64,000 bases of DNA, taken from a virus. A model generated the notes under the pieces. It was not told the origin of the DNA and made no database searches. It worked only from the letters and a program-made list of their open reading frames with translations. The stretch spans positions 95,747 to 159,746 of the IMG/VR virus record IMGVR_UViG_3300044691_000566. The stretch is one strand, 5' to 3'. Positions 2,647 to 53,545 of the stretch are shown here, in pieces (position 1 is the first letter of the stretch; each line of letters opens with the position of its first letter). Position numbers and translations under genes: made by a program.

Positions 2647-3567
2647 ATGGCATCTGGTAACCGCCCGCTCATGCAGGCCATGGCGTCCCAGCAGAAGACG
2701 CTGGAGGCCACCCGCCAGCACATGGCCAGGGTCACTGCCCGCAACGCCGAACTGGAGCGTCAGTTCGCCATCCAGGGCCTCCAGCTCGCGTACGTGGCGC
2801 GGCTGGCGGGGGTGACGAAGGAGGTCGAGGCGATCAAGCGCCAGGCCGACATCGACAACCCGGCGCAGCCCGTGCCCAACCCGCCCTCGGAGGCCCCGGT
2901 GGAGACCACCGAGCAGGCCGCCACCCCGGAGGCGTACGACAACCCCAACCAGATCGGGCAGACCCCCGGAGCCAACCAGGGCGTCGCGGCCGAGACCACC
3001 GCCACGCCGATGGACCCGGGCGTGACCCTGCCGACCGCGCCGTACAACCAGCTCCTCAACGTCTCCGCCCCGGTGGCCGGAACCGAGACCCACACCCCGC
3101 CGGACACCACGCGCATCGAGACCGACGTCCGCGTGGGCGACCCGATGAACCCGGAGACGGCCTACCCGCTCAACCCGGCGTTCGGGCCGTCCGCGCAGCA
3201 GGGCACCACCCCGCCGCGTGACGGGGAGATGAGCCAGACCGGTTCCCGCAACCGGACCCTGGCCTCCATGCGCCTGGCCCGTCACCGGATCACCGCCGGT
3301 CTGGTCCGGGGTGACGAGTTCGCGGTGGCCGCCTCCATCGAGGGCGACCAGAACCTGAGCGACGCGATGATCCGCCACGAGATCGCCACCCTGTCGCAGG
3401 TGACCAAGGCCGCCGCGCGGCAGGCCCGGCCGCAGGGCCTGGTGCCGCGCTCGGCTTCCGGTGTGCAGCGCACCACGCCGTCCCTGGTGACGCAGCCCGC
3501 CCCCATCACGTCGGTGGCGGGGTCCGTGGGCGCCTACGACGAGGACGCCGAGAGCCTTTTCGACTAG
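2647..3567 (+). CDS. putative capsid scaffolding protein
   Basis: N-terminal coiled coil and P/T-rich low-complexity body; directly upstream of decoration and major capsid genes; RBS GAGGAAG. Confidence 0.55.
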   Translation: MASGNRPLMQAMASQQKTLEATRQHMARVTARNAELERQFAIQGLQLAYVARLAGVTKEVEAIKRQADIDNPAQPVPNPPSEAPVETTEQAATPEAYDNPNQIGQTPGANQGVAAETTATPMDPGVTLPTAPYNQLLNVSAPVAGTETHTPPDTTRIETDVRVGDPMNPETAYPLNPAFGPSAQQGTTPPRDGEMSQTGSRNRTLASMRLARHRITAGLVRGDEFAVAASIEGDQNLSDAMIRHEIATLSQVTKAAARQARPQGLVPRSASGVQRTTPSLVTQPAPITSVAGSVGAYDEDAESLFD

Positions 3568-5866: not shown

Positions 5867-5970
5867 GGCCCCCGGATTTAAAAATCCGGGGGCCGTTCCC
5901 CTGCCCAGCCATGCCACGCCCAGCCAAACCCCACCGTGCCGGGCCATACCATGAGGCCCTGACTCTATCA
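5867..5970 (-). ncRNA. GGY/NN repeat RNA unit A5 (candidate guide)
   Basis: TGATAGAGTCA leader; NN = AT AT CC AC GG TT TG GT AT TG AG; hairpin GGCCCCCGGATTTTTAAATCCGGGGGCC. Confidence 0.75.
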
Positions 5971-5982
5971 TCTCCAACGACT

Positions 5983-6078
5983 GAGGGGCTCCCCGTAGGA
6001 AGCCCCTCCCATGCCTTGCCACGCCGAACCGGGCCCTGCCTTGCCCTGCCAGGGCATGCCAGGGCCTTGACCCTGTCA
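5983..6078 (-). ncRNA. GGY/NN repeat RNA unit A4
   Basis: TTGACA-N17-CAGGGT; NN = CT AT CT AG AA AG CC TC GT AA AT (one GCC triplet); cUACGg hairpin. Confidence 0.75.
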
Positions 6079-6104
6079 TCTCCAATGGCACCTGTCAAAC
6101 GACT

Positions 6105-6207
6105 GAGGGCGCCACCCCGAAGGATGACGCCCTCCCATGCCCCGCCTGGCCCTGCCAGACCTCGCCACGCCGAGCCTCGCCCAGCCCCGCAAGACCTGAC
6201 TCTGTCA
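6105..6207 (-). ncRNA. GGY/NN repeat RNA unit A3
   Basis: TTGACA-N17-CAGAGT; NN = GG TG GA TC GT GA CT AG CA GG AT; cUUCGg hairpin. Confidence 0.75.
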
Positions 6208-6231
6208 TCCCTGCCCGCATCTGTCAAAGCT

Positions 6232-6324
6232 GAGGGCGATCACCCGTAGATGATCGCCCTCCCATGCCCTGCCCGGCCAAGCCGAGCCGCGCCATGCCTA
6301 GCCCTGCAAGACCTGACTCTATCA
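6232..6324 (-). ncRNA. GGY/NN repeat RNA unit A2
   Basis: TGATAGAGTCA; NN = AG TA AT GC TC TT CG AG AT; cUACGg hairpin. Confidence 0.75.
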
Positions 6325-6335
6325 GCCCCAATGAC

Positions 6336-6436
6336 GAAGGGGCCCGAAGGACCCCTTCTCCCTGCCCTGCCCGGCCTAGCCCCACCGCGCCAGACCTTGC
6401 CCAGCCGTGCCTAGCCACGCGGCCCTGACTCTATCA
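6336..6436 (-). ncRNA. GGY/NN repeat RNA unit A1
   Basis: TGATAGAGTCA, whose TGA is the upstream ORF's stop; NN = GT TA AC TG AA CT GC GG TA CG AG AG; cUUCGg hairpin. Confidence 0.75.
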
Positions 6437-10960: not shown

Positions 10961-11065
10961 TGATAGGGTCAGGTCCTGCAAGGCACGGCAGGGCTAGGCG
11001 AGGTCTGGCAGGGTACGGCTGGGCACGGCAGGGGGAGGGCGATCACCTACGGGTGGTCGCCCTCC
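10961..11065 (+). ncRNA. GGY/NN repeat RNA unit B1
   Basis: TGATAGGGTCA; NN = AA AC AG TA GA CT AG AC TG AC AG; cUACGg hairpin. Confidence 0.75.
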
Positions 11066-11089
11066 GTTGTTGACAGATCCAGTAGGACA

Positions 11090-11185
11090 TGACAGAGTCA
11101 AGTCGTCCTCATTCACCTGGGGCGGGCGTCGGTCGATCCGTGGTGCTCCCTTTCGCAACAAGGGCACGGATTGACCGACGTCTTT
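11090..11185 (+). ncRNA. non-repeat hairpin small RNA inside array B
   Basis: TTGACA-N17-CAGAGT leader, then an 18-bp stem GGCGTCGGTCGATCCGTG/CACGGATTGACCGACGTC with two G.U pairs and a TTT tail. Confidence 0.55.
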
Positions 11186-11204
11186 GTACTCCCGTCGGTA
11201 ACCC

Positions 11205-11288
11205 TGATAGAGTCAAGTCCTCGGCACGGCTAGGTAGGGCAGGGTTTGGTAGGGCAGGGAGAAGGGGTCCTCTACGGAGGACCCCTTC
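11205..11288 (+). ncRNA. GGY/NN repeat RNA unit B3
   Basis: TGATAGAGTCA; NN = TC AC TA AG AG TT AG AG; cUACGg hairpin followed by GTTTT. Confidence 0.75.
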
Positions 11289-11344
11289 GTTTTGCCCCCG
11301 CAGGCCCGGTAGAGTCCGGCCTCCACCGTCAGAGAGGACCCTCA

Positions 11345-11554
11345 ATGCCCGACAGCGAGATCATCAGGGACTGGTACACCTCCAGCGCCTGCGGGGCGAA
11401 CAACTCCTGCCTGGAGGCCCGCACTTACGCCGACGGGTCGGTCGAGATCCGCAACTCCCAGGACCCGAAGGGCACCCTCCTCCGGTTCACCGAGGACGAA
11501 TGGTCCGCCTTCCTCGTGGGCGCCCGCGCCGGGGAGTTTTCCACCGGGGCATGA
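11345..11554 (+). CDS. DUF397-family protein
   Basis: WYTSSACGANNSCLEA...VEIRNSQDP...LRFTEDEWSAFL matches the actinobacterial DUF397 consensus. Confidence 0.85.
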   Translation: MPDSEIIRDWYTSSACGANNSCLEARTYADGSVEIRNSQDPKGTLLRFTEDEWSAFLVGARAGEFSTGA

Positions 11555-11556
11555 CC

Positions 11557-11640
11557 TGATAGAGTCAAGTCCTCGGCTAGGCATGGCGGGGCTCGGCTTG
11601 GCACGGCAGGGAGAAGGGGTCCACTACGGTGGACCCCTTC
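11557..11640 (+). ncRNA. GGY/NN repeat RNA unit B4
   Basis: TGATAGAGTCA; NN = TC TA AT GG TC TT AC AG; cUACGg hairpin. Confidence 0.75.
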
Positions 11641-11656
11641 GTCGTTGGGAGGACGG

Positions 11657-11836
11657 ATGCGCATCGGTCAGGAGCCGCCCCGGCGGGAGAAGCTGCGGGG
11701 CTACGTGATCACCGGCTGCATCAAGTGCGGCGGCCGGTCCAAGTGGATCCGGCGTGGACCGCACGACTGCTGCTTGCGCAAGGACATGAGCCGGGCCCGG
11801 GAGAAGCAGGAATGGCGCCGGACCCTCAGGGATTGA
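11657..11836 (+). CDS. small basic Cys-rich protein (59 aa)
   Basis: RBS GGAGG; CIKC...HDCC; its stop is the TGA of the next leader. Confidence 0.6.
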   Translation: MRIGQEPPRREKLRGYVITGCIKCGGRSKWIRRGPHDCCLRKDMSRAREKQEWRRTLRD

Positions 11837-11932
11837 TAGAGTCAAGTCCCTGGCAAGGCTGGCCAAGGCCCGGTAGGGCACGGCTTGGCCCGGCAGGGCA
11901 GGGAGAAGAGCCCCACTACGGTGGGGCTCTTC
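11834..11932 (+). ncRNA. GGY/NN repeat RNA unit B5
   Basis: TGATAGAGTCA; NN = CT AA TG AA CC AG AC TT CC AG AG (one GCC triplet); cUACGg hairpin. Confidence 0.75.
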
Positions 11933-11956
11933 GTCGTTGACGGACCCCGCAGTTCA

Positions 11957-12070
11957 TGACAGAGTCAAGTCCTGCATGGCCGGGCGGGACGTGGCGCGGT
12001 GTGGCATGGCTAGGTAGGGCCGGGCAGGGCATGGGCTGTGGAGATGGGGCCTCTTTCGGGAGGCCCCATC
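11957..12070 (+). ncRNA. GGY/NN repeat RNA unit B6
   Basis: TTGACG-N17-CAGAGT; NN = AT CG GG GT GC GT AT TA AG CG AG AT (one GAC triplet); UUCG hairpin. Confidence 0.75.
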
Positions 12071-12074
12071 GTCT

Positions 12075-12172
12075 TGATAGAGTCAAGTCCCTGGCTGGGC
12101 TTGGTATGGCTGGGCTTGGCGTGGTGAGGCATGGCAGGGGGAGAGGGCCCGGATTTTTAAATCCGGGCCCTC
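12075..12172 (+). ncRNA. GGY/NN repeat RNA unit B7
   Basis: TGATAGAGTCA; NN = CT TG TT AT TG TT GT GA AT AG; hairpin GAGGGCCCGGATTTTTAAATCCGGGCCCTC. Confidence 0.75.
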
Positions 12173-12182
12173 CGCCATATGG

Positions 12183-12212
12183 TTGACACTCCAGGAATCC
12201 TTGGAGTACAGT
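12183..12212 (+). promoter_or_regulatory. sigma70/HrdB-type promoter with a palindromic operator in the spacer
   Basis: TTGACA-N18-TACAGT; spacer holds ACTCCAGGAATCCTTGGAGT. Confidence 0.7.
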
Positions 12213-12250
12213 CACCTTCGCCAGAGAACGCCGAGCCCCAGGGAGGGCCC

Positions 12251-12829
12251 ATGCAGGTCCGTTTGACTCTTACCGGAACCACATCGCTGCTCATGCACAA
12301 CGCGCGGCTGTCCGACCCGTTGGACCCCTACACCAAGATGCTCAAGGCCATCTCCTCCAAGCGCACCAAGACGGAGGACGACCACGACGACATGGCGCGC
12401 GTCGAATTCCTCGGCGGCCTGTACTTCGACCCGGAGGCCGGGCCGTACGTTCCCGGCGTCAACGTCCACCGCTGCCTGGTGGAGGGCGCCAAGCTCAACA
12501 AGCTGGGCCGCCACGTGGAGCGCGGCATCATCGCCCTGGACGAGATCTGCCCGCTGGGCTACGCGGGGCCGCGCACGGAGGAGGCGCTGTGGAAGGACAA
12601 AAACTTCGTCTCCCGGCTGTCCGTCGGCGTCACCACCTCGCGCGTCATGCGCACGCGCCCCGAATTCCCGGTGTGGGGCCTGGAGGCCGACATGCTGGTG
12701 GACACCGGCCAGCTCGACCTGGAGCAGGTCCGCACCATCGCCGAGAAGTCCGGACAGATGATCGGTCTCGGCGACTACCGTCCCCGGTTCGGGCGATTCA
12801 CCGTCGAGGTCGTCGAACTCCAGGGCTGA
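12251..12829 (+). CDS. stand-alone RAMP / Cas7-like RNA-binding protein (Vipr-like effector candidate)
   Basis: 192 aa; N-terminal strand VRLTLTGTTSLLMH, PYVPGVNVHRCL, RTRPEF..W and C-terminal G-rich loop IGLGDYRPRFGRFTV are RAMP hallmarks; adjacent to the GGY/NN array; RBS GGGAGG. Confidence 0.8.
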   Translation: MQVRLTLTGTTSLLMHNARLSDPLDPYTKMLKAISSKRTKTEDDHDDMARVEFLGGLYFDPEAGPYVPGVNVHRCLVEGAKLNKLGRHVERGIIALDEICPLGYAGPRTEEALWKDKNFVSRLSVGVTTSRVMRTRPEFPVWGLEADMLVDTGQLDLEQVRTIAEKSGQMIGLGDYRPRFGRFTVEVVELQG

Positions 12830-12868
12830 TCCCGCCAGAATCTGTACCACCGAACAGAAGGAGGACGA

Positions 12869-13432
12869 ATGGCCGCCAAGCCGTTCGAGCCCAAGGGCGA
12901 TGTCGCCCGCTGGGTCCCCGTCTACGAGAATCTGCGCGACCTGGAGCCGGGGGTGCTGGTCACGTACGAGCAGCTCTCGGAGTGGGCCGGAGTCGATGTC
13001 CGGCGCGACCGCAGCCCCCTCGTGCAGGCCGAGGACAAGCTCCTGAAGGAGCACGGGCGCGGCGTCGCCAACGAGCGGGGCGTGGGGTACCGGATCATGC
13101 TGGCCTCCGAACACGGTGAGGCCGCCCGGCGCCAGACCCGGAAGGCCGACCGCCGGATCAGGAAGGCCATAACCCTTCTGACCGTGGCCGACCGCAATCA
13201 CCTGACCCCGCAGCAGCGGCAGAAGTACGAGAGTCAGGCCGGGGCTCTCCAGGCCGTCCGGGACATGACCAACCGCCTGGCGCGGCGGACGGCCGCGCTG
13301 GAGGAGGGTCTGAAAGCGGTCCGTCGGGAGACCAAGGAGACCACGGCCGGTCTGTCCGACCGCTTGGAGCGGCTGGAGGCCCGGTTCGCGAACGTTCCGG
13401 GCGATGCCCCGGCGGACAGCACCACGACCTGA
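12869..13432 (+). CDS. winged-helix plus coiled-coil protein, co-transcribed with the RAMP gene
   Basis: VTYEQLSEWAG...NERGVGYRI wHTH-like N-terminus and long helical C-terminus; RBS GAAGGAGG. Confidence 0.7.
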   Translation: MAAKPFEPKGDVARWVPVYENLRDLEPGVLVTYEQLSEWAGVDVRRDRSPLVQAEDKLLKEHGRGVANERGVGYRIMLASEHGEAARRQTRKADRRIRKAITLLTVADRNHLTPQQRQKYESQAGALQAVRDMTNRLARRTAALEEGLKAVRRETKETTAGLSDRLERLEARFANVPGDAPADSTTT

Positions 13433-13507
13433 TAAGGTCACCCCCATCGGGATTTTAAAATCCCGCACAGACGACAGGCCCGTTCATGGGGAACGGGCCT
13501 GTCGTCA

Positions 13508-15338: not shown

Positions 15339-15424
15339 TGATAGAGTCAGGGCCTCGGTATGGCTGGGCCGGGCTCGGCTGGTCGGGGCATGGCAGGGGA
15401 GGCCCCCACTTCGGTGGGGGCCTC
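15339..15424 (+). ncRNA. dispersed GGY/NN repeat RNA unit C
   Basis: TGATAGAGTCA; NN = TC AT TG CG TC TG GG AT AG (one GTC triplet); cUUCGg hairpin. Confidence 0.7.
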
Positions 15425-46881: not shown

Positions 46882-46968
46882 GAAGAGGTCCTCCGTAGAG
46901 GACCTCTTCTCCCTGCCGTGCCTGGCCTCGCCTCGCCTAGCCATGCCCCGCAAGACCTGACTCTATCA
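46882..46968 (-). ncRNA. dispersed GGY/NN repeat RNA unit D
   Basis: TGATAGAGTCA; NN = GG AT TA GA GA CA AC AG; cUACGg hairpin. Confidence 0.7.
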
Positions 46969-48019: not shown

Positions 48020-48121
48020 GAAGGGGACCACCCGGAGGTGGTCCCCTTCTCCCTGCCAAGCCAAGCCCCGCCACGCCATACCCTGCCGCGCCTCGCCATG
48101 CCTCAAGACCTGACTCTATCA
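48020..48121 (-). ncRNA. dispersed GGY/NN repeat RNA unit E
   Basis: TGATAGAGTCA; NN = GA AT GA GC AG AT GT GG TT TT AG; cUCCGg hairpin. Confidence 0.7.
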
Positions 48122-48585: not shown

Positions 48586-48686
48586 GAAGGGGCACCCCCG
48601 TAGAGGTGCCCCTTCTCCCTGCCGTGCCAAGCCCTACCCTGCCCTGCCATGCCAGGCCGAGCCATGCCAAGGACTTGACTCTATCA
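48586..48686 (-). ncRNA. dispersed GGY/NN repeat RNA unit G
   Basis: TGATAGAGTCA, whose TGA is the antirepressor stop; NN = TT AT TC CT AT AG AG AG TT AC AG; cUACGg hairpin. Confidence 0.7.
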
Positions 48687-50982: not shown

Positions 50983-53145
50983 ATGCCAGAGAGCGACACC
51001 GAGGAGGGCCCTATGACCGTTGTGGACACCGTGACCCAGCTCCCGCACATACCCGAGAACTTCTCCGTCGTGGAGGGGGCCTTCGCCGCGCACCTGCCGG
51101 GCTACGAGCCCCGCAAGCCGCAGCAGGCCATGGCGAGCGCGATCGAGGTGGCCCTGGCCGACAGCAGGTCCCTCTACGTGCAGGCGGGCTGCGGTACCGG
51201 CAAGTCCCTCGGCGGCATGGTCCCCGCGCTCCTCCAGGCCCTGCACCAGAAGACCCGCCTCATCGTGGCCACGGCCACCAAGGCCCTCCAGGAGCAGTAC
51301 GCCAACAGCGACATTCCGTTCCTCCAGGAGCACTCCGGCATCCCCTTCACCTGGGCGCTGGTCAAGGGCCGCAGCAATTACACCTGCCAGGTCAAGCTGA
51401 ACAGCGACGACATGGAGCACGACGCCACCGCCCAGGCCGTCAAGGCCGAGCTGGCCGCCGACGAGGAGCACTCCGGCGACCGCGAGCACTTCGGTGTCCA
51501 GATCGACGACCTGGCCTGGCGGAAGCTCTCCAGCGGCAGCAGCGAGTGCCCGGGAAAATCCCAGTGCCCGTTCGGCGAGGTCTGCTACGCCGAGAAGGCC
51601 AAGAAGAAGGGCAACGAGTCCGACCTGGTGATCACCAACCAGGCGATGCTCGCCACCGACCTGGTCATCCGGGAGAAGACGCGGAGCGAGAACAGCGACG
51701 GCATCGCGATGCTCGGCGACTACGGCATCGTCCTCCTGGACGAGGGCCACGAGTGGCCGGAGATCGTGGCCAACACGCTGGGCAACGAGTTCACCCCGCG
51801 CGGGGTGCCCTTCCTCCTGCGGGACGCGCTGTCGTTCGTCTCCCTGCACGGCGGCAACGGGGACGACGAGAACCCTGCTGCGGCGGCCATGCAGCAGCGG
51901 GTCGACGAGTGCTCGAAGATCATGAACCAGCTCGACGAGCTGGCCCTCCCGCTGGTCGGCGAGGCCCTGACCCAGAGCTGGTTCGTCGACCACTACGGCC
52001 CCTTCGCGGACCTGAACGACCTGCTCAAGTCGGTCTACCTGGACCTGCGGGGCGTGAAGGTCCGCAACGACGTGGACCGCCAGCAGGGCAAGCTGAAGCT
52101 GCTGCTGACCCGCATCGAGAACACCCTCAAGGTCCTGGAGGAGCTGCTGTTCTCCGAGGACCACGAGCGCGTCCGCTGGGTCGATGGCTACAAGGTCCGC
52201 GAGGAGGACCACTGGCGCCTGAAGGTCGCGCCGGTCGACGTGGCCCCGTTCCTGACGAAGATGCTCTGGGAGGAGACCCCCACCATCGTGATGTCCGCGA
52301 CCCTGTCGGCGGGCAAGGACCGGAACGGCAACGCGGACTTCGGCTACATCAAGCGGACCTCGGGCCTGGAGGACGCCGGGACGGTGGACGTCGGCACCCC
52401 GTTCGACCTCCCGAAGCAGGCCCGCATGTTCGTGCCCGCCCCCACCCAGCCGTCCCCCAAGGAGTACGGCGCCTGGTCCGGCTACGCGATCCGGACGACC
52501 CTGGAACTGGTCGACGCCGCCAAGGGCGGGGCGCTGCTGCTCTACACGAGCCGCAAGGCGATGGAGGCCGCGCACGAGGACCTCAAGGACCGCCTGGAGG
52601 ACCGGGGGTTGACCGTGCTCATGCAGGGCGACGGCCGGAGCAACAAGGAGCTGGCGAAGATCTTCAAGGCGGACACCCACTCGGTGTTGTTCGCTCTGAA
52701 AAGTTTTTTCGTCGGAGTGGACGTCCCCGGTGACGCCTGCCGCCTGGTCATTGTGGACAAGCTGCCTTTTCCGGTCCCTTCCGACCCGATCTTCCAGGCG
52801 CGTGCCCTGGCCGAGGAGCGGGCCGGACGCCGGTCCTTTTCGACCCTGAGCATCCCGATGATGACCCTGTCGCTGGAGCAGGCCGTCGGCCGCCTGATCC
52901 GGACAAAGACCGACAAAGGCGTGGTTGCGATCTTGGACAGTCGCCTGACCAGCACCCCGTACGGCCGGGGCATCGTCACCGCCCTGCCGAACTTCCCGGT
53001 GACCACCAAGATCAGCGACGTCCAGGAGTTCTACGGCGGCCAGACGACTTCCGACCGCCCGGAGTCCACGCTCGCCGACCTGGCGGCCGGGCCCCAGGCG
53101 ACCGTGGGAGAGGTCACCACGGCTTGGAAGAACGGCCTCCGGTGA
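50983..53145 (+). CDS. dinG: DinG/YoaA-family helicase
   Basis: GYEPRKPQ, QAGCGTGKS, TATKALQEQ, KGRSNY.C, FeS cysteines, LDEGH, SATL, GVDVPG, DKLPF, QAVGRLIR. Confidence 0.9.
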   Translation: MPESDTEEGPMTVVDTVTQLPHIPENFSVVEGAFAAHLPGYEPRKPQQAMASAIEVALADSRSLYVQAGCGTGKSLGGMVPALLQALHQKTRLIVATATKALQEQYANSDIPFLQEHSGIPFTWALVKGRSNYTCQVKLNSDDMEHDATAQAVKAELAADEEHSGDREHFGVQIDDLAWRKLSSGSSECPGKSQCPFGEVCYAEKAKKKGNESDLVITNQAMLATDLVIREKTRSENSDGIAMLGDYGIVLLDEGHEWPEIVANTLGNEFTPRGVPFLLRDALSFVSLHGGNGDDENPAAAAMQQRVDECSKIMNQLDELALPLVGEALTQSWFVDHYGPFADLNDLLKSVYLDLRGVKVRNDVDRQQGKLKLLLTRIENTLKVLEELLFSEDHERVRWVDGYKVREEDHWRLKVAPVDVAPFLTKMLWEETPTIVMSATLSAGKDRNGNADFGYIKRTSGLEDAGTVDVGTPFDLPKQARMFVPAPTQPSPKEYGAWSGYAIRTTLELVDAAKGGALLLYTSRKAMEAAHEDLKDRLEDRGLTVLMQGDGRSNKELAKIFKADTHSVLFALKSFFVGVDVPGDACRLVIVDKLPFPVPSDPIFQARALAEERAGRRSFSTLSIPMMTLSLEQAVGRLIRTKTDKGVVAILDSRLTSTPYGRGIVTALPNFPVTTKISDVQEFYGGQTTSDRPESTLADLAAGPQATVGEVTTAWKNGLR

Positions 53146-53426
53146 CCCGGCCGGTGCTGTACTTCGTGCTCGCGTGCTCCCGGCACCAGTCCATGGACTG
53201 GTGCCGGGAGCACGACGTTCGCCCTCACCGGCCCGGGGTCTCCATCGATAATCGCGAGGAACCGGTGGCGCTCCACGTCACAGACATCCAGCGGCTCCGG
53301 GGCCTCCAGGGGTCCGGCCCCATTGAGGTCGTCACGACGGGGAACTGGTATCACCTCCGGGCTTCCGGAGAACTGCTGGAGGTCGCCGAGCGCATTGCCC
53401 AGGTCGCCAACGAGGACAGGTCCTGA
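53142..53426 (+). CDS. hypothetical protein
   Basis: GTGA overlap with the dinG stop; its stop is the TGA of the next leader. Confidence 0.55.
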   Translation: MTRPVLYFVLACSRHQSMDWCREHDVRPHRPGVSIDNREEPVALHVTDIQRLRGLQGSGPIEVVTTGNWYHLRASGELLEVAERIAQVANEDRS

Positions 53427-53532
53427 TAGAGTCAGGACTACATGGTGCGGCTTGGCCTGGTGAGGCGTGGCTAGGCAGGGCAAGGCATGGGTATGGACAG
53501 TGGCTCTCCTCCGGATGGGGGAGAGCCACTGT
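53424..53532 (+). ncRNA. dispersed GGY/NN repeat RNA unit H
   Basis: TGATAGAGTCA; NN = AT GC TT CT GA GT TA AG AA AT; hairpin ACAGTGGCTCTCC...GGAGAGCCACTGT. Confidence 0.7.
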
Positions 53533-53545
53533 TGCGTTTTGGGGG

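What the first reader, a model, noticed from the sequence alone, without database searches (positions are those of the whole stretch)
10961..13465. Non-CRISPR RNA-guided system candidate: stand-alone RAMP/Cas7-like gene beside an array of GGY-NN small RNAs
Seen: six units (B1, B3-B7) directly upstream of a 192-aa RAMP-fold gene (G-rich loop IGLGDYRPRFGRF) and a wHTH/coiled-coil gene. Each unit is a leader, 7-11 GGY triplets separated by variable dinucleotides, and a hairpin. No cas1, cas2, cas3, cas5, cas6 or CRISPR array is present in the window. Known: Cas7 RAMPs polymerise along guide RNAs with a fixed nucleotide step. Inference: one subunit binds each constant GGY and displays the NN for pairing, so each unit is a programmable guide. 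This matches my recollection of the recently reported phage VIPR systems (GGY/NN guides, gapped DNA recognition, transcriptional repression), which I cannot verify here.
Basis: partly seen in the sequence, partly recalled or inferred. Interest (0 to 1): 0.97.

Follow-up and report, generated by a model that had tools for sequence, protein, structure and literature searches.

The report
Actinophage VIPR guide-RNA silencing system
This stretch of a 160-kb soil actinophage is a genuine VIPR system (a CRISPR-related, phage-borne RNA-guided DNA silencer first described in 2026), and one of its guides spells a conserved helicase motif of bacterial restriction enzymes and Streptomyces plasmid-end helicases.

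Summary

The six units are vrRNA genes. Each has its own promoter, 7-12 NNGGY repeats and a hairpin tail. Across 195 repeats GG is about 97% conserved and the third base is never a purine, while NN is near-random.

The complete 159.7-kb virus carries 20 such units at 11 sites, against 0.27 expected. In related loci, 79 of 84 with a Vipr homologue have the same tracts beside the gene. No guide matches the phage itself.

Under the published skip-one-base rule, guide B6 matches exactly the codons for helicase motif III, RLYMTATPRI. It does so in 38 viral contigs and at least 120 bacterial genomes. The genes are Type ISP restriction-modification enzymes and, in Streptomyces, ttrA-like helicases at replicon ends.

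A second-array guide hits Ro60-like genes of rival actinophages. Guides B1, B5 and B7 gave only chance-level hits.

This is a new member of a known kind. This scan has already found VIPR systems, including guides against this same motif, on other DNA.

The parts
10961..11068 (+). vrRNA gene B1 (v10): extended -10 promoter TGATAGGGT, about 10 variable NN, terminal AGGGG unit, 16-bp UACG-loop hairpin
   Evidence: (z -5.3)
11090..11200 (+). B2: same promoter type (TTGACA-17-CAGAGT) but no GGY tract; long hairpin RNA of unknown role, or a decayed unit
   Evidence: z -4.5
11205..11288 (+). vrRNA gene B3 (v11), 7 NN
11345..11554 (+). 69-aa DUF397 protein gene sitting inside the array
   Evidence: Pfam PF04149 E 1.2e-14, phrog_10815
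11557..11640 (+). vrRNA gene B4 (v12), 7 NN
11657..11836 (+). 59-aa Cys-containing ORF inside the array; no family match, coding status unproven
11834..11932 (+). vrRNA gene B5 (v13), about 9-10 NN
11957..12074 (+). vrRNA gene B6 (v14). TTGACG-17-CAGAGT promoter. The 10 pairing NN (AT CG GG GT GC GT AT TA AG CG) are the antisense of the codons for RLYMTATPRI
12075..12176 (+). vrRNA gene B7 (v15), about 8-9 NN
12183..12212 (+). Promoter-like site of vipr: TTGACA-18-TACAGT, with the palindrome CTCCAGGAATCCTTGGAG between the hexamers
   Evidence: 10 of 12; shuffles mean 0.1
12251..12829 (+). vipr: 192-aa minimal RAMP, G-loop GLGDYRPRFGRF
12869..13432 (+). vap1-like accessory gene, 187 aa, predicted DNA-binding N-terminal half plus a helical C-terminal half
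   Evidence: phrog_5926, shared with SUSP1 vap1; 27% identity over 86 aa to SUSP1 vap1; the MakoManhole homologue is annotated as a DNA binding protein
13470..13506 (+). 16-bp hairpin after vap, a likely operon terminator
   Evidence: read from the sequence
5867..6436 (-). Second array of five vrRNA genes (v05-v09). v09 matches the Ro60/TROVE-like genes of other actinophages
15339..15424 (+). Solo vrRNA gene v16
46882..46968 (-). Solo vrRNA gene v17
48020..48121 (-). Solo vrRNA gene v18
48586..48686 (-). Solo vrRNA gene v19
53424..53537 (+). Solo vrRNA gene v20. Its best partial match in the genome lies 862 nt away, in the phage's own dinG-like gene

Best explanation
This is a type II-like VIPR system of a complete 159.7-kb high-GC actinophage.

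Each unit is an independent small gene. It has a phage promoter: either an extended -10 (TGATAGAGT), or TTGACA-17-CAGAGT where the -10 is weaker. It should give a vrRNA of about 70-100 nt with three parts: 7-12 NNGGY repeats, a constant terminal A(G/T)GGR unit, and a GC-rich UNCG-loop hairpin that probably both caps the RNA and terminates transcription.

By homology with SUSP1 Vipr, one Vipr protomer binds each repeat. It hides the GGY using H16, R136, D175, Y176 and R177, and presents the NN. The filament then pairs with double-stranded DNA that reads NNxNNx... and blocks transcription. The vap1-like DNA-binding protein assists.

The guides aim at genes that this phage does not carry. They read protein motifs codon by codon, because the skipped base falls on the wobble position. 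B6 reads helicase motif III of Type ISP restriction-modification enzymes and ttrA-like replicon-end helicases. v09 reads a motif of Ro60-like genes in rival phages.

Shown here: homology, fold, repeat grammar, association across relatives, absence of self-targets, and exact natural matches. Inferred: transcription start and end points, RNP formation, DNA binding, repression, and which matched gene matters in the real host.
For: Protein:
- E 4.6e-40 over residues 4-188 to the PDB chain 'SUSP1 Vipr protein'.
- It falls in the same PHROG as SUSP1 Vipr.
- The residues whose mutation abolished (D177, R138, K33, K82) or reduced (R39) silencing in SUSP1 are D175, R136, K32, K81 and R38 here. H17 is H16, R179 is R177, and W178 is Y176. 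All are invariant or conservatively varied in 60 relatives.

vap:
- phrog_5926, as for SUSP1 vap1, and pairwise E 6e-6.

RNA units:
- 20 units against 0.27 expected.
- GGY is fixed and NN is near-random.
- All 20 units end in hairpins of -27 to -46 kcal/mol with different stem sequences.
- The terminal (A/G)TGGG junction is also seen in SUSP1 units.

Association:
- 79 of 84 loci with a Vipr homologue have such tracts. Nearly all are on the gene's strand and most lie within about 1.5 kb of it; SUSP1 served as positive control.

Targets:
- No self-match reaches 80% under the skip-1 rule.
- The B6 10-NN pattern matches exactly in 38 viral contigs and at least 120 genomes. Every site examined, bar one cut off by its contig end, is the antisense of RLYMTATPR(I/M) with free wobble bases.
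- The genes are Type ISP enzymes or HA-domain helicases.
- A sister phage carries a guide to the same motif shifted by two codons.
- v09 matches 59 viral contigs.
- Control guides gave 1, 1 and 8 incoherent hits.
Against: - Nothing shows that the units are transcribed, or that the RNA binds the protein. The host is unknown, so no in vivo target is established.
- Only 2 of the 7 guides scanned against public collections gave clear natural targets. B1, B5 and B7 did not, and B3 and B4 are too short to test by exact scans.
- The tail is a plain hairpin, not the pseudoknot of the SUSP1 clade, so how the 3' end is capped is not known.
- The generic terminator scan found no U-tailed terminator.
- The type II assignment was not tested on the published phylogeny.
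Confidence: 0.93

Rival explanations
1. It is a VIPR system, but a decaying or idle one. Most guides would be relics without live targets, and the B6 match would be a leftover from an ancestor in another host.
For: B1, B5 and B7 gave only chance-level hits in IMG/VR. B1 and v01 gave none in the metagenome collection. B1 gave 1 hit in 401 Streptomyces genomes at up to 2 mismatches. B2 has lost, or never had, a tract.
Against: All 20 units keep promoter, register and hairpin. GGY is about 97% intact. The Vipr functional residues are intact. A sister phage keeps an overlapping guide to the same motif. In the published work only about half of the guides had findable targets. My scans were exact-match only.
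Confidence: 0.05
2. The period-5 tracts are not guide RNAs. They would be DNA-level or structural elements, such as promoter-terminator cassettes, two-tetrad G-quadruplex tracts or regulator-binding arrays, that merely sit beside a RAMP-like gene.
For: Each unit has a promoter-like motif that also occurs at mRNA promoters of this phage. Expression of the RNAs is not shown. G2N3 repeats could in principle form weak quadruplexes (own knowledge).
Against: The tracts travel with Vipr homologues in 79 of 84 loci spanning GC 0.40-0.72. The NN strings of two units spell conserved codon runs in unrelated genomes with free third positions, which a structural element would not do. Identical grammar is experimentally shown to be guide RNA in SUSP1.
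Confidence: 0.01
3. It is a degenerate or minimal CRISPR-Cas (class 1) effector remnant that uses conventional contiguous guides supplied from elsewhere.
For: The fold resembles Csm3/Cmr4/Cas7.
Against: There is no repeat-spacer array in the window and no Cas1 in the complete genome. Sequence homology is to Vipr and not to any Cas7 chain: the PDB search returned only SUSP1 Vipr. Pfam gives no Cas family match.
Confidence: 0.01

Closest known systems
Type II VIPR system of Escherichia phage SUSP1 (Vipr + Vap1 + vrRNAs; bioRxiv 10.64898/2026.04.26.720920 and .720927; PDB 36pp)
   Same: The Vipr is homologous over its full length (38% identity) with the GGY-reading and DNA-clamping residues kept. 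The vap belongs to the same PHROG. The vrRNAs are built of YNNGG repeats that end in an (A/G)TGGG-type junction. It is phage-borne, lacks cas genes, does not target itself, and its natural matches follow the 1-nt skip rule with the skip on the wobble base.
   Different: - There are 20 guides instead of 4, spread over 11 sites of a 160-kb genome.
- Six lie upstream of vipr and none directly downstream of vap.
- Every guide appears to have its own promoter and hairpin terminator.
- The tail is a simple GC-rich UNCG hairpin with variable sequence, not a conserved pseudoknot.
- Two small ORFs (one DUF397) and one non-GGY RNA sit inside the array.
- The host is a high-GC actinobacterium.
- One guide matches restriction-enzyme and ttrA-like genes rather than a satellite.
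Pseudomonas fulva prophage VIPR clade (type II; same preprints)
   Same: The two-gene vipr-vap1 layout with flanking vrRNA arrays. The guides are aimed at other mobile elements.
   Different: Those guides concentrate on the lysis-lysogeny regulators of resident prophages. No such convergence on one element was found here.
Solo (orphan) vrRNAs of F5 satellites and VIPR-null SUSP1-like phages (bioRxiv 10.64898/2026.10.15.759431)
   Same: Single vrRNA genes located away from any vipr gene. Self-match scores are lower than scores against rivals (here v20 and v01).
   Different: Here the solo units are in a phage that keeps its own vipr-vap pair. In two cases they sit right beside the phage's own, non-matching version of the gene they resemble.
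Class 1 CRISPR backbone proteins (Csm3, Cmr4, Cas7)
   Different: There is no repeat-spacer array and no adaptation or processing genes. The step is 5 nt, with only 2 of every 5 bases pairing. Sequence similarity is undetectable.

Membership tests
VIPR system | Vipr protein homologous to an experimentally characterised Vipr | tested here: met
   E 4.6e-40, residues 4-188 against 5-190 of PDB 36pp 'SUSP1 Vipr protein'. Both are in phrog_4652.
VIPR system | Minimal RAMP fold: RRM core, glycine-rich loop, thumb | tested here: met
VIPR system | Residues that read GGY and clamp DNA in the SUSP1 structure | tested here: met
   H17, K33, R39, K82, G87, R138, D177 and R179 correspond to H16, K32, R38, K81, G86, R136, D175 and R177. 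W178 is Y176 (Y and W alternate in the clade). The Y3 pocket residues E71 and M72 differ: they are V70 and N71.
VIPR system | vrRNAs of at least 4 tandem YNNGG repeats with conserved GGY and hypervariable NN | tested here: met
   There are 20 units of 7-12 repeats. Entropy is about 0.2 bit at GG, 0.6 at Y and 1.9-2.0 at NN.
VIPR system | Structured 3' tail after the repeat tract | tested here: met
   All 20 units have a constant A(G/T)GGR junction followed by an 11-20-bp hairpin. It is a hairpin with variable sequence, not the clade-specific pseudoknot of SUSP1.
VIPR system | Adjacent vap accessory gene | tested here: met
   The 187-aa gene lies 40 nt downstream of vipr. It hits phrog_5926 at E 5.6e-9, the family that holds SUSP1 vap1 (E 3.6e-75). 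BLASTP against SUSP1 vap1 gives E 6e-6.
VIPR system | No CRISPR array or cas genes; viral context | tested here: met
   The record is a complete virus with direct terminal repeats. There is no repeat-spacer array. No Cas1 was found, with a positive control. Other cas families were not searched one by one.
VIPR system | Natural targets obey the 1-nt skip rule, with the skipped base at the codon wobble position; no self-targeting | tested here: met
   B6 gives 38 viral and at least 120 genomic exact sites. All sites examined, bar one cut off by its contig end, lie in one codon frame of one motif. v09 gives 59 sites. The best self score is 77% or lower. The other five guides scanned gave nothing above chance.
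VIPR system | vrRNA expression, co-purification with Vipr, gapped dsDNA binding, transcriptional repression | not testable with these tools
   This needs sRNA-seq, pull-down, EMSA and reporter assays.
VIPR type II (SUSP1 / P. fulva type) | Position in the published Vipr phylogeny together with vap1 and the array architecture | tested here: inconclusive
   The closest characterised Vipr is the type II exemplar, and the vap is vap1-like. The published tree and type table were not available to place it.
Class 1 CRISPR-Cas effector | CRISPR repeat-spacer array and partner cas genes (Cas5/Cas6/large subunit, Cas1-Cas2) | tested here: not met

The most novel reading that the evidence does not exclude
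The phage uses VIPR not only against rival phages but also to switch off bacterial or plasmid genes.

A single guide (B6) reads the wobble-proof codon string for helicase motif III. It can therefore recognise Type ISP restriction-modification genes and ttrA-like replicon-end helicases in any host, whatever the codon usage. That would be RNA-guided anti-restriction or anti-plasmid silencing, a target class not mentioned in the three VIPR preprints held here.

The genome-wide scatter of self-promoted guide genes would then be a library of such motif readers. Some sit beside the phage's own escaped allele of the targeted gene.
Probability: 0.35. Interest if true: 0.7.

Novelty: new member of a known kind. 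Interest (0 to 1): 0.45.

Why it matters
The finding extends a system known mainly from enterobacterial and Pseudomonas phages to a large high-GC actinophage. It also gives a clean natural example of how the gapped code works.

Because every third base is ignored, one guide reads a protein motif rather than a DNA sequence. The motif is matched exactly in over 150 sites from Bartonella (GC 0.32-0.42) to Streptomyces (GC 0.72).

If the match to Type ISP restriction genes or ttrA is functional, VIPR would also serve as an RNA-guided counter-defence or anti-plasmid weapon. The compact promoter-guide-hairpin genes are also a ready-made design for expressing guides in actinomycetes.

Tried and rejected
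- **Single-sequence fold.** The AF2 fold of the protein without an alignment failed (pLDDT 32). It was replaced by the MSA-based model.
- **No named families or close phages.** Pfam gave nothing for vipr and only sub-threshold hits for vap. Rfam gave nothing above gathering for the RNAs. Megablast of the locus against GenBank phages found nothing.
- **vap structure.** No solved structure resembles vap by sequence.
- **Targets next to other VIPR loci.** Scoring all 20 guides on 1.24 Mb around 80 Vipr homologues gave only v09 (20 of 24) and weak v05 and v12 hits.
- **Targets in whole-genome relatives.** G001-G003 (72-75% nucleotide identity) gave none except v20 at 16 of 20. The TROVE genes of G001 and G002 do not match v09.
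- **v16 against rival vap genes.** This was suggested by a 14-of-18 match to the phage's own vap. It was not borne out in the 80 loci.
- **Exact scans for B1, B5 and B7.** They gave 1, 1 (6 with a shorter pattern) and 8 hits. The hits lie in low-GC contigs and not in wobble-aligned long ORFs, so they are chance. An earlier frame offset in my script was corrected.
- **Wider scans.** B1 and v01 gave 0 hits in the metagenome collection. B1 gave 1 hit at up to 2 mismatches in 401 Streptomyces genomes.
- **Convergence of guides.** No other guide lands on the loci that B6 or v09 hit.
- **tRNAs.** ARAGORN found none near the arrays.
- **Neighbouring genes.** They gave no informative PHROG names.
- **Complex prediction.** None was run.
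Full report
**What is there**

The window is the last 64 kb of a complete 159,746-bp IMG/VR virus with direct terminal repeats and 67% GC. Between 10961 and 12176 on the + strand lie seven short units that begin with TGAYAGRGTCARG.

Each then has a final A(G/T)GGR pentamer and a 12-16-bp GC-rich hairpin, usually with a UACG or UUCG loop. B2 has the same start but no GGY tract. It folds into a long hairpin instead.

A DUF397 gene (11345-11554) and an unassigned 59-aa ORF sit between units. The 192-aa gene (12251-12829) and a 187-aa gene (12869-13432) follow. A promoter-like TTGACA-18-TACAGT precedes them and a hairpin follows at 13470-13506.

**Is it more than chance?**

- A scan for at least 6 period-5 GGY units finds 20 tracts in the whole genome, against 0.27 in Markov shuffles.
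- Over 195 repeats the two G positions are 97-98% G. The third position is C (166) or T (29), never a purine.
- The NN positions carry 1.92-1.97 bits of entropy, and all 16 dinucleotides are used.
- The starting motif occurs 18 times in the window against 0.5 expected.

**What the 'leader' is**

The motif contains TAGAGT preceded by TG, which makes an extended -10 element. Units whose hexamer is the weaker CAGAGT or CAGGGT have TTGACR 17 nt upstream (v06, v07, v14 and B2).

The same motif stands before an ordinary gene with a ribosome-binding site (48555, minus strand). Its near-palindromic core recurs at promoters of the early operons.

I therefore read it as a promoter, so that each unit is a separate small gene. 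The predicted RNAs are about 70-100 nt, close to the roughly 100-nt vrRNAs measured for SUSP1. Start and end points are inferred and not shown. The generic terminator scan finds no U-tailed terminators.

**The protein**

- Pfam is silent.
- The protein matches phrog_4652 at 1e-57. It has 130 tblastn matches in GenBank phages, including Gordonia, Mycobacterium, Pseudomonas and Felixounavirus-type coliphages.
- Its only match among PDB sequences is 'SUSP1 Vipr protein' (36pp), at E 4.6e-40 over the whole length. SUSP1's own gene falls in the same PHROG.
- The cryo-EM preprint names the residues that read the two guanines (H17, D177, R138, W178), hold the pyrimidine (R179 and others) and clamp DNA (K33, R39, K82). 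Here they are H16, D175, R136, Y176, R177, K32, R38 and K81. They are invariant or conservatively varied in 60 relatives.

**The second gene**

It shares phrog_5926 with SUSP1 vap1. It aligns to vap1 at 27% identity over 86 colinear residues. The Gordonia phage MakoManhole homologue is annotated as a DNA-binding protein.

**Association across relatives**

I fetched 80 viral loci with Vipr homologues and added SUSP1 and MakoManhole. Of these, 79 of 84 have at least one NNGGY tract. Nearly all tracts are on the gene's strand and most lie within about 1.5 kb of it.

**The wider set of guides**

Besides the six units, the window holds a five-unit array on the minus strand (5867-6436) and five solo units (15339, 46968, 48121, 48686, 53424). 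The rest of the genome holds four more.

A 154-kb relative also has guides at four separate sites. Scattered solo vrRNAs are published for satellites and for phages that lost vipr. Here they coexist with an intact vipr-vap pair.

**Targets**

I applied the published rule, in which the guide NN pair with DNA reading NNxNNx.

- No site in the phage itself reaches 80% of NN. The skip-3 control finds each guide's own gene.
- For v01 and v20 the best partial match in the whole genome lies 87 and 862 nt from the guide. In each case it is in a neighbouring gene whose protein resembles the decoded peptide. In the dinG-like gene beside v20 the Ser, Arg and Leu codons differ.
- Guide B6: the ten NN after the constant start, written ATNCGNGGNGTNGCNGTNATNTANAGNCG, match exactly in 38 IMG/VR contigs.
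- Every site examined, bar one cut off by its contig end, is the antisense of the codons for RLYMTATPR(I/M). The third positions vary freely across GC 0.32-0.73. The two NN beyond the 3' end of the match, and those before the 5' end, do not pair. This sets the guide's limits.
- The genes are about 1,650-aa Type ISP restriction-modification enzymes, with the domains Mrr_cat_2, ResIII, ISP_coupler, N6_Mtase and Type_ISP_C. PADLOC calls them REase_MTase_IIG at E 0. About 88 of the 120 genomic hits are of this kind.
- In 18 high-GC actinomycete genomes (many named Streptomyces; also Actinomadura) the gene is instead an 820-1,270-aa helicase with HA domains.
- On the complete linear Streptomyces plasmid NZ_CP108702 that gene lies 0.8 kb from the right end and points inward. 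This is the position described for ttrA, a helicase needed for conjugal transfer of linear plasmids (PMC8743542).
- The phage has no such helicase.
- A sister phage (Vipr 72% identical) carries, just upstream of its vipr, a guide that decodes to (F/L)RRLYMTAT. This is the same motif shifted by two codons, which argues that the motif is a selected target in this lineage.
- Guide v09 matches 59 viral contigs. The high-GC ones are about 545-aa TROVE/Ro60-like RNA-binding proteins with the motif VYTWNLAGY, some in phages that themselves carry VIPR. The phage lacks a TROVE gene.
- Scans with B1, B5 and B7 returned 1, 1 and 8 hits that are not in wobble-aligned ORFs. This sets the chance level.
- B1 and v01 found nothing in the metagenome collection. 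B1 found 1 hit in 401 Streptomyces genomes.

**Mechanism and its limits**

By homology, Vipr should polymerise one protomer per repeat, hide GGY and display NN. It should form the gapped R-loop on double-stranded DNA and block transcription, with the vap1-like protein enhancing the effect. None of this is measured for this phage.

Which B6 match matters is open, because the host is unknown. The nearest isolated phages by a neighbouring structural protein infect Gordonia, Mycobacterium and Rhodococcus at 31-36% identity. In those bacteria the perfect sites are in Type ISP genes. In Streptomyces they are in ttrA-like genes.

Silencing a restriction gene after entry would not remove enzyme that is already made. 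An anti-plasmid role, or an effect on a defence gene carried by a rival prophage, is at least as plausible as direct anti-restriction.

**Comparison and novelty**

The system meets every sequence-level criterion of VIPR and is closest to type II (SUSP1 and P. fulva). It differs from that type in five ways:
- the number and scatter of guides;
- one promoter and one hairpin per guide;
- a hairpin in place of a pseudoknot tail;
- genes interleaved in the array;
- a guide that matches bacterial or plasmid genes.

The three VIPR preprints held here do not mention restriction or host-defence genes as natural targets. Earlier notes of this scan report VIPR systems in other genomes, including guides to this same helicase motif and to other restriction genes. 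Those notes are unchecked AI notes. What I rely on here is my own scans.

**Verdict**

This is a new member of a known kind.

Noticed in passing
window 11090-11200 (+): Unit B2 has the vrRNA-type promoter (TTGACA-17-CAGAGT) but no GGY tract. It folds into a long, stable hairpin (-45.9 kcal/mol, z -4.5). It could be an unknown small RNA or a decayed guide gene.
   Followed up: partly
window 12183-12230 (+); genome sites at about 29.1, 42.5, 45.3, 49.0 and 50.4 kb: The vipr promoter carries the palindrome CTCCAGGAATCCTTGGAG between -35 and -10. A near-identical palindrome next to TGACTCTGTCA recurs at several early-region promoters. This looks like a phage-wide promoter and operator module shared with the guide-gene motif.
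   Followed up: partly
window 11345-11554 (+): A DUF397 protein gene (PF04149, E 1.2e-14) sits between two guide genes. To my knowledge this family is typical of Streptomyces-like actinomycetes, so it may hint at the host.
   Followed up: no
L008 (sister phage contig IMGVR_UViG_3300048999_000131), about 160 nt upstream of its vipr: A guide with NN GT GC GT AT TA AG CG CG AA decodes to (F/L)RRLYMTAT. This is the same helicase motif III as B6, shifted by two codons.
   Followed up: yes
L001 (Gordonia phage MakoManhole) about 1650-1692 and 2975-3000: One vrRNA tract is immediately preceded by a T-arm/acceptor-like element (GGTGGGGTTCGACTCCCCACCCGAGC). The start of the same element recurs just after the second tract. 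ARAGORN calls no tRNA. This may be tRNA-like punctuation of a guide array, an architecture not listed in the preprint (which describes hammerhead-interspersed and staggered arrays).
   Followed up: partly
window 5867-5970 (-), guide v05: Read antisense, the guide decodes to H(I/M)TQKPVG(I/M)(I/M). This resembles the HxTQKP motif of N6/N4 DNA methyltransferases (own knowledge). An 18-of-22 match in L017 reads HVTQKPEGLI.
   Followed up: no
genome 55926 (outside the window) and window 52534-52563: For the solo guides v01 and v20, the best partial match in the whole genome lies in a gene right next to the guide. Near v20 the phage's own dinG-like allele escapes through alternative Ser, Arg and Leu codons. 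The layout suggests guides aimed at rivals' alleles of the neighbouring gene.
   Followed up: partly
L139-L197 (low-GC subset): The v09 pattern also matches a roughly 275-aa protein (motif YVYTCKLAGYD) in about 35 low-GC viral contigs. It is unclear whether this is a homologous motif or a coincidence of the degenerate code.
   Followed up: no
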